From Escherichia coli (GTDB lineage Bacteria > Pseudomonadota > Gammaproteobacteria > Enterobacterales > Enterobacteriaceae), in the NCBI RefSeq assembly GCF_051903065.1, contig NZ_CP178438.1: a stretch of 64,000 nt of DNA. One strand, 5' to 3'. Below are positions 39,136-39,837 of the stretch, in pieces. Position 1 is the stretch's first letter. Each line of letters begins with the position of its first letter. The position numbers are program-made.

Positions 39136-39837
39136 AGTTATGCGCAGATGCCTGATGCGACGCTTTGCGCGTCTTATCATGCCTACAAAACTGAACTTAA
39201 CCGTAGGCCGGATAAGGCGTTTACGCCGCATCTGGCATGAACAGTGTGCATTTTGGCAATAAATATGAAACCAACTGTCATGTCGGTTTTTTTAAAGGCC
39301 GAAGGTGGTAAACCTTCGGCCTTAGCGACGTTTCCTCAGTTATTCAATAAACTGACGGATCAGTTCCAGCAGCGCGATTAGCGCCTTAAGAACGATGAGA
39401 ACTTTATCGAGAAAAGTTTTCATCCGTTGCTCCCTTAAGGGAGAAAGACAATCACAGCTTACCCTTACGTTGCCTGTAACTATGATTTTCTTCATGTGCT
39501 AGATGAGGACTGCCTCTCTCCAAATTAGAGCACCAGAATCAGCACCACCTGTATCCTGACCAGGACTTAAAAGTACTTTTCCGCACTGCGGTAATCCCTT
39601 GAGGCAGTATCACTACTAGCGTCGGGATTGTATCGCCAACATAGCTGTTTGAATATGTAGGCATCCTGACTTATAATTCACTTGCTAGATGAGGACTGTT
39701 TCATTTCTGCCCGGAACCACCAAGTCTTGGGCGGAAAAAATAAAAAAACCGACTGTCATGTCGGTTTTTTTATATCTGTATTCTGGTGCAACCATTCTGT
39801 TCTCACGACAATCGCCGTTTCAGAATACCGCCCATCA

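What the first reader, a model, noticed from the sequence alone, without database searches (positions are those of the whole stretch)
39270..39771. Duplicated 19-nt terminator core bracketing the toxin locus
ctgtcatgtcggttttttt occurs at 39275-39293 and 39753-39771. The second is the sRNA terminator; the first lies just outside the toxin 3' end. This suggests the locus arose by duplication of an sRNA-like module, as in tandem zorO-orzO/zorP-orzP or agrA/agrB arrangements, with one copy decayed.
Basis: seen in the sequence. Interest (0 to 1): 0.3.

Follow-up and report, generated by a model that had tools for sequence, protein, structure and literature searches.

The report
Copied terminator brackets a toxin-antitoxin cassette
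A small E. coli toxin/antisense-RNA cassette carries a second short copy of the antisense RNA's terminator hairpin next to the toxin's own terminator; it is a local sequence copy, not a decayed second RNA gene, and a few natural strains have lost the whole cassette exactly between the two copies.

Summary
CTGTCATGTCGGTTTTTTT occurs exactly twice (39275-39293, 39753-39771; none expected by chance). The true repeat is 27 nt with one mismatch.

The locus is a dinQ-like type I toxin-antitoxin module of about 570 bp, inserted between ybbP and mnmH in about 1,330 of 5,426 complete E. coli genomes. Copy 2 is the bidirectional terminator of an AgrB-family antitoxin sRNA. Copy 1 abuts the toxin's own terminator hairpin.

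The idea of a decayed duplicated sRNA module is not supported:
- Similarity stops at the hairpin and T-run.
- The sequence left of copy 1 resembles the toxin's distal 3' flank in plasmid relatives, not the sRNA body.
- None of about 40 related chromosomal loci, nor any plasmid relative listed or read (about 1,640 records matched), has such a copy.
- No genome shows tandem copy-number variation.

Copy 1 looks like a net 19-nt copy of the sRNA terminator, inserted at a pre-existing T-run. Its single mismatch keeps a G·U-paired, terminator-like hairpin on the toxin strand only.

Five genomes carry the exact copy1×copy2 recombinant, with the 478 bp holding toxin and sRNA deleted. This is an ordinary locus with a modestly interesting structural quirk.

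The parts
39251..39821 (.). Extent of the toxin-antitoxin module, an indel relative to empty-site genomes (boundaries uncertain by 1-2 nt)
   Evidence: Empty-site genomes E1 and CREC-544 read ...catgaacagcgtgcac|agaatcccccatcactgcgcctta. Genomes lacking the module lose homology at or next to the mnmH stop codon.
39243..39267 (-). Distal 3' flank of the toxin gene, left of the inserted hairpin
   Evidence: Aligns to the conserved GAATGTTGTAACTAAAnGATG flank of plasmid dql loci (p 0.003-0.015 against shuffles, at most 0.0013 against random 25-mers). It does not align significantly to the sRNA pre-terminator region (p 0.12-0.5).
39268..39294 (-). The net extra sequence relative to relatives is 39268-39286, followed by the T-run 39287-39293.
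   Evidence: 26/27 identical to 39746-39772. Called terminator-like on the minus strand only: 8-bp stem with G·T and tail CATATTTATT. Hairpin energy is -8.5 kcal/mol on the minus strand and -6.3 on the plus strand. Present in all carrier genomes, and no allele lacks it.
39295..39323 (-). The toxin's own terminator hairpin, homologous to dinQ SL9
   Evidence: 12-bp perfect inverted repeat. Conserved in position and flanks (AAAGG...CCTTAGYTACGTTTCC) in about 40 dinQ/dql loci. SL9 is assigned as the dinQ terminator in PMC5066626. On the toxin strand it is followed by UUUAAAAAAA.
39340..39422 (-). Toxin CDS, 27 aa: MKTFLDKVLIVLKALIALLELIRQFIE
   Evidence: Within the ORF at 39340-39495. PGAP annotates the identical sequence as dinQ, WP_349808740.1. 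NCBIfam toxin_DinQ NF041472 scores 40.9 bits against a cutoff of 30.
39423..39620 (-). Toxin 5' UTR (the 5' end is inferred), holding the conserved family motif at 39543-39569
   Evidence: The motif GCACCACCTGTATCCTGACCAGGACTT is shared with K-12 dinQ, plasmid dql and zorO loci. The region is collinear with the K-12 dinQ mRNA.
39497..39512 (-). Target box for the antitoxin sRNA in the toxin 5' UTR
   Evidence: Direct DNA repeat with the sRNA 5' end: 22 nt at 91% (39491-39512 versus 39677-39698), 16 nt of it perfect (read). The RNAs are therefore complementary. Cofold energy is -36.1 against -11.2 kcal/mol for the separate RNAs.
39627..39632 (-). Putative -10 box (TACAAT) of the toxin promoter (inferred)
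   Evidence: Aligns with the TATAAC -10 region of K-12 dinQ. It was not picked up by the consensus scan. No LexA box is present, unlike K-12.
39649..39677 (+). sRNA promoter: TTGAAT, 17-nt spacer, TATAAT
   Evidence: 10 of 12 consensus matches.
39685..39773 (+). AgrB-family antitoxin sRNA
   Evidence: Rfam RF02891, 53.6 bits, gathering 40, full model length. Homologous over its full length to K-12 agrA/agrB and plasmid sRNAs. Folds into three hairpins, -33.9 kcal/mol, z -4.9.
39740..39773 (.). Copy 2 (27-nt repeat 39746-39772) inside the sRNA's bidirectional terminator, which also faces mnmH
   Evidence: 14-bp perfect stem, called terminator-like on both strands. Energies are -17.5 and -16.4 kcal/mol. 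The stem AAAAACCGAC/GTCGGTTTTT is identical to that of K-12 agrA/agrB.

Best explanation
The window holds a dinQ-like (dql) type I toxin-antitoxin module inserted between ybbP and mnmH. It encodes a 27-aa membrane-toxin gene on the minus strand, with a roughly 200-nt 5' UTR, and a divergent AgrB-family antisense sRNA on the plus strand that pairs with a 14-16-nt box in that UTR.

Copy 2 of the 19-mer is the original: it is the sRNA's Rho-independent, bidirectional terminator. Copy 1 is a secondary local copy of that hairpin. About 19 nt (AAACCAACTGTCATGTCGG) were copied in front of a T-run that already lay beside the toxin's own terminator. The most likely route is a single template-switch or short-patch repair event anchored on the two T-runs (inferred). 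It is not the remnant of a second sRNA gene or a second toxin-antitoxin unit.

Consequences:
- Inferred: on the toxin strand copy 1 forms a G·U-containing hairpin followed by UUUCAUAUUUAUU. This would act as a back-up terminator or 3' stem-loop after a primary hairpin whose tail (UUUAAAAAAA) is poor.
- Shown by sequence: the 27-nt direct repeats, 478 bp apart, are a deletion substrate. Five natural genomes carry exactly the hybrid single copy, having lost the toxin gene, both promoters and the sRNA body in one step.
For: Identity of the locus:
- Rfam AgrB 53.6 bits against a gathering score of 40.
- NCBIfam toxin_DinQ 40.9 bits against a cutoff of 30.
- PGAP annotates dinQ.
- The conserved 5'-UTR motif is present and the region is collinear with K-12 dinQ.
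- The dql family is described in PMC5066626.

Direction of copying: copy 2's stem and A/T runs are the ones conserved in K-12 agrA/agrB and plasmid sRNAs, and the sRNA aligns over its full length. The copy 1 region aligns only at the terminator.

Short insertion rather than a decayed gene:
- Similarity is limited to 27 nt.
- The 25 nt to the left resemble the plasmid toxin flank (p 0.003-0.015 and at most 0.0013), and the T-run plus hairpin to the right are collinear with plasmid loci.
- In the plasmid relatives listed, homology begins at window 39285-39292, which is the T-run (1,641 records matched).
- Among 44 dinQ/dql/zorO loci, only the window-type has a long shared substring between the toxin flank and its own sRNA terminator region (21 nt, against at most 10 elsewhere).

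Strand asymmetry: terminator-like on the minus strand only, at -8.5 against -6.3 kcal/mol.

Fixation: 1,324 carrier genomes and Escherichia sp. E1V33 all have copy 1 with the A variant.

Deletion: the predicted recombinant junction occurs as a single 100-nt match in 5 genomes, read directly in LR-28. It comes in three junction haplotypes. These solo alleles keep the toxin-flank remnant without a toxin, so they derive from the full module.
Against: - No allele with the predicted ancestral state (toxin hairpin preceded by ATG and T-run, without the hairpin copy) was found in E. coli genomes or metagenomes. The insertion is therefore inferred only by comparison with relatives that are at most 72% identical.
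- The left-flank homology is short (about 22 nt). The same A-rich stretch also aligns at 13 of 19 positions to the sRNA's pre-terminator region.
- K-12 dinQ mRNA (about 330 nt) ends right after SL9. Most toxin transcripts here may therefore stop before copy 1, leaving it without a role in RNA.
- The feature is confined to one lineage of the family, which fits a neutral accident.
- The nearest flank relatives of the solo genomes are other solo genomes. The deletion may have happened once long ago rather than repeatedly.
Confidence: 0.6

Rival explanations
1. Relic of a tandem duplication. The whole toxin-sRNA unit, or the sRNA alone, was duplicated, and the upstream copy was then deleted or decayed down to its terminator.
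For: - Tandem duplication is real in this family: agrA/agrB in K-12 and two tandem dql units in Photorhabdus L008 and L050.
- An sRNA terminator facing a toxin terminator is what the joint of a tandem array would look like.
- The A-rich 13 nt left of the repeat align loosely to the sRNA (83% over 40 nt).
- An unequal exchange between the two T-runs followed by a deletion would give the same final sequence.
Against: - It needs two events, and the deletion must end exactly at the T-run junction.
- No similarity to the sRNA body or promoter lies upstream.
- At most about 42 nt could remain, because REP sequence shared with empty-site genomes starts 15-17 nt to the left.
- The left flank matches the toxin flank of plasmid loci better than it matches the sRNA.
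- No tandem copy-number variant occurs in 1,330 genomes.
- Genuine tandem units in Photorhabdus keep homology over their full length and are separated by hundreds of nt.
Confidence: 0.15
2. The solo single-copy allele is the ancestral state. The cassette entered by homologous (Campbell-type) recombination of a circular toxin-sRNA segment at a pre-existing terminator, creating the direct repeat.
For: - Three allele classes exist: empty, solo and full.
- A crossover to the right of the mismatch would give exactly the observed order: the A copy, the cassette, then the G copy.
- The solo genomes are each other's nearest flank relatives.
Against: - The solo allele carries, on its left, sequence homologous to the toxin's distal 3' flank, and its hairpin stem is the AgrB-family stem. 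A pre-insertion site would have no reason to hold either.
- Solo alleles are rare: 5 against about 1,325.
- The outgroup Escherichia sp. E1V33 has the full allele.
Confidence: 0.05
3. Copy 1 is kept by selection as a second antisense site. The toxin mRNA's 3' hairpin (loop AUGACA) would kiss the antitoxin's terminator loop (UGUCAU) and extend to a 27-bp duplex, giving a second point of control or of RNase III cleavage.
For: - The loops are perfectly complementary.
- A 27-bp duplex with one G·U scores -41.9 kcal/mol, against -26.0 for the two separate hairpins.
- The canonical 5' pairing is only 14-16 nt perfect here, against 30/31 in K-12.
- Copy 1 is invariant in about 1,324 genomes and in E1V33.
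Against: - Complementarity follows automatically from any direct DNA repeat transcribed from opposite strands.
- The toxin mRNA may end before copy 1.
- No other family member has it.
- The whole module is nearly invariant, so conservation of the repeat says little.
Confidence: 0.07
4. Chance resemblance, or a generic terminator that evolved independently at both places.
For: Both copies are hairpin plus T-run elements, a common motif.
Against: - An exact 19-mer (21 nt including flanking bases) with an identical loop, where 0.00 are expected.
- Absent from genomes without the module.
- Absent from viral contigs.
- Absent from the toxin flank of all other family loci.
Confidence: 0.01

Closest known systems
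dinQ-agrAB type I toxin-antitoxin locus of E. coli K-12 (Weel-Sneve 2013, PMC3567139; Kristiansen 2016, PMC5066626)
   Same: - A small single-helix toxin matching the DinQ model.
- A long structured 5' UTR with the same conserved motif.
- A divergent AgrB-family sRNA whose 5' end is antisense to the UTR.
- A GC hairpin terminator just past the stop codon.
- The same sRNA terminator stem.
   Different: - A different chromosomal site (ybbP-mnmH, not gor-arsR).
- One sRNA instead of two.
- Only 14-16 nt of perfect antisense pairing instead of 30/31.
- No LexA box.
- DNA identity of only about 68-70% over part of the locus.
- An extra copy of the sRNA terminator next to the toxin terminator.
dql (dinQ-like) loci on enterobacterial plasmids, for example dqlB/agrB of IncL pOXA-48-type and IncX plasmids (PMC5066626, PMC12365149, PMC12317039)
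   Same: - The same module layout.
- The toxin terminator hairpin and its flanks are the closest match to the window (AAAGGCCGGAGGTGG...CCTTAGTTACGTTTCC).
- The distal flank ...TAAAnnATG followed by a T-run is shared.
   Different: - At most about 72% identity.
- No plasmid locus that was listed or read carries the sRNA-terminator copy in the toxin flank (1,641 records matched).
- The sRNA terminator stems differ (GCCCGA...TCGGGC).
zorO-orzO / zorP-orzP tandem type I loci of E. coli O157
   Same: A type I toxin with a long 5' UTR and a divergent sRNA. zorO-type loci also carry the same GCACCACCYGT...CCAGGACTT UTR motif.
   Different: There, two complete toxin-sRNA units stand in tandem. Here there is one unit plus a 27-nt terminator copy, with no second toxin ORF, promoter or antisense box.
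Short direct-repeat (slipped-mispairing or short-homology) deletions and template-switch insertions in bacteria (general knowledge)
   Same: - A 27-nt direct repeat 478 bp apart, with natural alleles that are the exact one-copy recombinant.
- A second deletion in the same locus lies between near-identical 10-mers.
   Different: Here the repeat brackets a complete toxin-antitoxin pair, so a single event removes the toxin gene and the antitoxin's promoter and body together.

Membership tests
DinQ/AgrB (dql) type I toxin-antitoxin family | A small hydrophobic toxin peptide matching the DinQ family model | tested here: met
   NCBIfam NF041472 toxin_DinQ scores 40.9 bits against a cutoff of 30. DqlB model NF041473 scores 24.5, below its cutoff of 35. 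PGAP names it dinQ.
DinQ/AgrB (dql) type I toxin-antitoxin family | An AgrB-family antisense sRNA encoded divergently upstream of the toxin | tested here: met
   Rfam RF02891 scores 53.6 bits against a gathering score of 40, over the full model, at 39685-39773. A promoter with 10/12 consensus matches lies at 39649-39677. Full-length alignment with agrA/agrB.
DinQ/AgrB (dql) type I toxin-antitoxin family | The sRNA 5' end is complementary to the toxin 5' UTR | tested here: met
   A 22-nt DNA direct repeat at 91%, 16 nt of it perfect (39497-39512 versus 39683-39698). Cofold energy -36.1 kcal/mol. This is shorter than the 30/31 reported for K-12.
DinQ/AgrB (dql) type I toxin-antitoxin family | Conserved 5'-UTR sequence and structure elements of dinQ/dql mRNAs | tested here: met
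   The motif GCACCACCYGT-N(6-10)-CCAGGACTT is present at 39543-39569, and the region aligns collinearly with the K-12 dinQ mRNA. The alternative-pairing elements 1-4 were not examined individually.
DinQ/AgrB (dql) type I toxin-antitoxin family | SOS (LexA) control of the toxin promoter. This defines dinQ proper, not dql in general. | tested here: not met
   K-12 has TACTGTATGATTATCCAGTT (15/20, both CTG and CAG cores). No site reaches 13/20 in window 39560-39700.
DinQ/AgrB (dql) type I toxin-antitoxin family | The peptide is toxic and the sRNA neutralises it | not testable with these tools
   This needs expression experiments. Indirect hint: 190 genomes carry a toxin-null deletion that retains the sRNA.
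Tandem sRNA duplication of the agrA/agrB type | A second sRNA copy with its own promoter, 5' antisense box and body, on the 5' side of the toxin | tested here: not met
   Only one AgrB hit on the + strand reaches the gathering score. Copy 1 lies on the 3' side of the toxin. There is no similarity to the sRNA body or promoter, and only 27 nt are shared.
Tandem toxin-sRNA units of the zorO-orzO/zorP-orzP type | A second toxin ORF and sRNA adjacent, or copy-number variation of the unit | tested here: not met
   No second toxin-like ORF. REP/BIME sequence shared with empty-site genomes begins 15-17 nt left of copy 1. There is one place per genome in 1,330 genomes.
Target-site duplication of a mobile element | Direct repeats at the exact ends of the inserted segment, with one copy in the empty site | tested here: not met
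   The repeats lie about 17 nt and 48 nt inside the module ends, and the empty sites hold no copy.
Rho-independent terminator | A GC-containing hairpin followed by a U-rich tract on the transcribed strand | tested here: met
   Copy 2 qualifies on both strands. Copy 1 qualifies on the minus (toxin) strand only, with energies given. Actual termination was not measured.

The most novel reading that the evidence does not exclude
The copied hairpin gives the toxin mRNA a 3'-terminal stem-loop whose loop and stem are perfectly complementary to the antitoxin sRNA's own terminator. The antitoxin would then engage the toxin mRNA at two sites: the canonical 5'-UTR box, and a 3' kissing-loop that extends to a 27-bp RNase III substrate. 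That would be a dual-site type I antitoxin created by a single templated insertion, which also makes the whole cassette excisable.
Probability: 0.07. Interest if true: 0.6.

Novelty: new member of a known kind. Interest (0 to 1): 0.3.

Why it matters
The locus itself is an ordinary member of the described dinQ-like family. It is already labelled dinQ by NCBI's annotation pipeline, though it lacks the LexA box that the name implies.

Two points are new, and both are modest.
- An antitoxin's terminator hairpin was copied next to its toxin's terminator.
- The resulting 27-nt direct repeat brackets the toxin gene and the antitoxin's promoter and body. Natural strains exist in which the cassette has been cut out exactly between the copies.

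Together with a toxin-null deletion in 190 genomes, this gives a small, clean natural series: empty, full, toxin-null and solo-repeat alleles. That series could be used to study how chromosomal type I toxin-antitoxin loci are lost. It also warns against reading every repeated terminator as a decayed gene copy.

Tried and rejected
1. **Extended homology between copy 1's upstream region and the sRNA.** The local alignment was no better than shuffles, and the right-anchored test gave p 0.12. Rejected as evidence for a decayed sRNA.
2. **Copy 2 as an ancestral mnmH terminator into which the module inserted.** Rejected, because genomes without the module lose homology at the mnmH stop codon and have no such hairpin.
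3. **Target-site duplication.** Rejected, because the repeats lie inside the module ends.
4. **Search for an allele lacking the 19 nt.** None in 5,426 E. coli genomes, and none in metagenomes with two guessed patterns.
5. **Search for a full allele with G in copy 1, as a sign of ongoing conversion.** None.
6. **Search for tandem expansion.** None.
7. **Viral contig scans for the 19-mer and the toxin hairpin.** No hits.
8. **Claim of several independent recent deletions.** Withdrawn. There are three junction haplotypes on diverse flanks, but the solo genomes are each other's nearest flank relatives and no full-allele genome has identical flanks.
9. **GF43.** It looked like a repeat-mediated recombinant, but it is a different deletion of about 70 bp.
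10. **Whole-transcript duplex prediction.** Uninformative, since it gave long loop-ridden pairings. Only the two site-specific cofolds were used.
11. **Window-wide LexA pattern search.** Too unspecific. It was replaced by a local weighted scan.
12. **Literature search by sequence strings.** Found nothing relevant.

Full report
**Observation**

The 19-mer CTGTCATGTCGGTTTTTTT is present at 39275-39293 and 39753-39771 and nowhere else in the window, even allowing three mismatches. None is expected by chance. Reading the sequence shows a 27-nt repeat: 39268-39294 against 39746-39772, 26/27 identical, with A39273 opposite G39751. The repeat finder extends it to 40 nt at 83%, but the added bases are A-rich and not significant. 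Downstream of both copies there is no similarity. The region upstream of copy 1 has no similarity to the sRNA body or promoter (best local score 13, shuffle mean 15.6).

**What the locus is**

The window is E. coli, 100% identical to strain ECNB21-M121. The region lies between ybbP (36507-38921, +) and mnmH (39835-40929, -).

- **Toxin.** The minus strand encodes a 27-aa peptide, MKTFLDKVLIVLKALIALLELIRQFIE (39340-39422). PGAP calls it DinQ, and it passes the NCBIfam toxin_DinQ model at 40.9 bits against a cutoff of 30.
- **Antitoxin sRNA.** On the plus strand, behind a TTGAAT-17-TATAAT promoter, lies an 89-nt RNA. It matches Rfam AgrB over the full model at 53.6 bits against a gathering score of 40, and aligns end to end with K-12 agrA/agrB and plasmid sRNAs.
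- **Pairing.** The sRNA 5' end repeats a box in the toxin 5' UTR (22 nt at 91%, 16 nt perfect in the sequence), so the two RNAs are complementary there.
- **Family.** The UTR carries the motif GCACCACCYGT...CCAGGACTT, shared with K-12 dinQ and plasmid loci. This is the dinQ-like (dql) family of Kristiansen et al. 2016, in which the GC hairpin just past the stop codon (SL9) is the toxin terminator. The window's homologue of that hairpin is 39295-39323.

**Population and module boundaries**

About 1,314-1,330 of 5,426 complete E. coli genomes carry the locus. Escherichia sp. E1V33 has it at the same site. Between E1V33 and the window, the module differs at 4 of 568 positions, while ybbP differs by 2.4% and mnmH by 4.9%.

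Two genomes with a bare ybbP-mnmH spacer (E1 and CREC-544) read REP...catgaacagcgtgcac|agaatcccccatcactgcgcctta. The module is therefore about 39251-39821. Genomes with other inserts at this site (K-12 and AR_0055) lose homology at the mnmH stop codon.

It follows that both copies of the repeat belong to the module. Copy 2 is not an older mnmH terminator, and the repeat is not a target-site duplication.

**Which copy is the original**

The stem and runs of copy 2 (AAAAACCGAC...GTCGGTTTTTTT) are identical to the terminators of K-12 agrA and agrB, which differ only in the loop. Copy 1 shares copy 2's loop exactly. So copy 2 is the family-conserved terminator and copy 1 derives from it.

**Is copy 1 the stump of a second sRNA or unit?**

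I oriented 44 dinQ/dql/zorO loci from species-representative genomes and compared each toxin 3' flank with its own sRNA terminator region.

- Every locus has ...(A)ATGTTAAAGG or ...TTTATTAAAGG directly before the toxin hairpin.
- Only the window type (E. coli and E1V33) shares a long substring with its sRNA terminator: 21 nt, against at most 10 elsewhere.
- 1,641 plasmid records hold relatives. In those listed, homology to the window starts at 39285-39292, which is the T-run, and none carries copy 1.
- The plasmid loci share a conserved distal flank, GAATGTTGTAACTAAAnGATG-TTTTTATT-AAAGGCC.
- The window's 39243-39267 aligns to that flank (p 0.003-0.015 against shuffles, at most 0.0013 against random 25-mers), but not significantly to the sRNA's pre-terminator region.

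Relative to these relatives, the window has a net 19 extra nucleotides, AAACCAACTGTCATGTCGG, placed immediately before a T-run that was already there.

In K-12, both agr copies lie on the 5' side of dinQ with promoters and antisense boxes. Real tandem units in Photorhabdus keep homology over their full length. No E. coli genome has more than one copy of the copy1-hairpin-toxin segment.

I conclude that a single short templated copy, anchored on the T-runs, is the most economical origin. There are three caveats:
- No allele lacking the 19 nt was found.
- The comparison rests on relatives that are at most 72% identical.
- A full tandem duplication followed by a deletion ending at the same point would give the same sequence.

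**What copy 1 may do**

The single mismatch is asymmetric. On the plus strand it is A·C. On the toxin strand it is G·U. The consensus scan calls copy 1 terminator-like only on the minus strand, with an 8-bp stem and tail CATATTTATT. The hairpin is -8.5 kcal/mol there and -6.3 on the plus strand.

The toxin's primary hairpin is followed by UUUAAAAAAA, a poor U tract, so copy 1 could act as a back-up terminator or a protective 3' stem-loop. This is inference. K-12 dinQ mRNA ends right after SL9, so transcripts may not reach copy 1.

Because the repeat is direct, a toxin transcript that includes it would be complementary to the sRNA terminator. The loops are AUGACA and UGUCAU, and a 27-bp duplex scores -41.9 against -26.0 kcal/mol for the separate hairpins. 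I rate a selected second pairing site as unlikely but not excluded.

**What the repeat demonstrably does**

I built the junction expected from recombination between the copies and searched for it. Five genomes (LR-28, AR_0077, PapM-32-1, PapRG-04-4, GF131) contain it as one uninterrupted 100-nt match, and I read it in LR-28. In these genomes the 478 bp holding the toxin terminator, the toxin, the UTR, both promoters and the sRNA body are gone. Left behind are the toxin-flank remnant, one hybrid hairpin and the right end of the module.

Because that remnant is toxin-flank sequence without a toxin, these alleles derive from the full module and not the reverse.

They come in three junction haplotypes: ATG/A, CTG/A and ATG/G. 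No full allele has G in copy 1. However, the solo genomes are each other's closest flank relatives, and no full-allele genome matches their flanks exactly. One old event followed by divergence cannot be separated from several events.

**Verdict**

It is wrong in its main claim, that this marks a decayed duplicated sRNA or toxin-antitoxin module. The locus is an ordinary, already annotated member of the dinQ-like family with a lineage-specific structural quirk. That quirk's clearest effect is to make the cassette deletable.

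Noticed in passing
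window 39394-39403 and 39502-39511; L002 1790-1810: A 108-bp deletion between the near-identical 10-mers GATGAGAACT and GATGAGGACT removes the toxin start codon, the ribosome-binding site and the sRNA target box, while keeping the sRNA. It is present in 190 genomes, about 14% of carriers.
   Followed up: partly
L081 1540-1560 (strain GF43), corresponding to window about 39291-39360: A separate deletion of about 70 bp runs from copy 1's T-run into the toxin's last codons. It removes the toxin terminator hairpin and the stop codon.
   Followed up: partly
window 39560-39700: The toxin promoter region has no LexA box (none reaches 13/20), whereas K-12 dinQ has a 15/20 box. The 'damage-inducible' product name given by automatic annotation is probably not justified for this paralogue.
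   Followed up: partly
L015, L028, L029, L048, L063, L074: zorO-type toxin loci (MDTLTQKL...LRLIDLLK and relatives) carry the same 5'-UTR motif, GCACCACCCGT-N-CCAGGACTT, as dinQ/dql loci. This suggests that the two type I families share a UTR ancestry.
   Followed up: no
L003 3550-4650 (E2348/69); H31 (TB06052); H224, H225 and H243: Insertion sequences have landed repeatedly in or beside this small module. IS481 sits between the toxin and sRNA promoters in E2348/69, IS200C in TB06052, and IS621 in several strains.
   Followed up: no
window 39251-39821 versus L049: Between E. coli and Escherichia sp. E1V33 the module differs by 0.7%, while the flanking ybbP and mnmH differ by 2.4% and 4.9%. This suggests either strong constraint or recent horizontal spread of the module.
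   Followed up: no
window 38930-39242: The spacer between ybbP and the module is filled with REP/BIME units (Rfam naRNA4 and ES036 hits). Their number varies between strains, which explains the 83% coverage class.
   Followed up: no
L008 900-2500; L050: Photorhabdus genomes hold two complete dql toxin-sRNA units in tandem (periods of about 911 and 847 nt), and several further copies per genome.
   Followed up: no
window about 4500-17200: Near-identical short strings recur about 1.8 kb apart, for example CTGCGGGTCGATAC at 4551, 8148, 13539 and 15333. This points to a very large internally repetitive gene upstream of the region studied.
   Followed up: no
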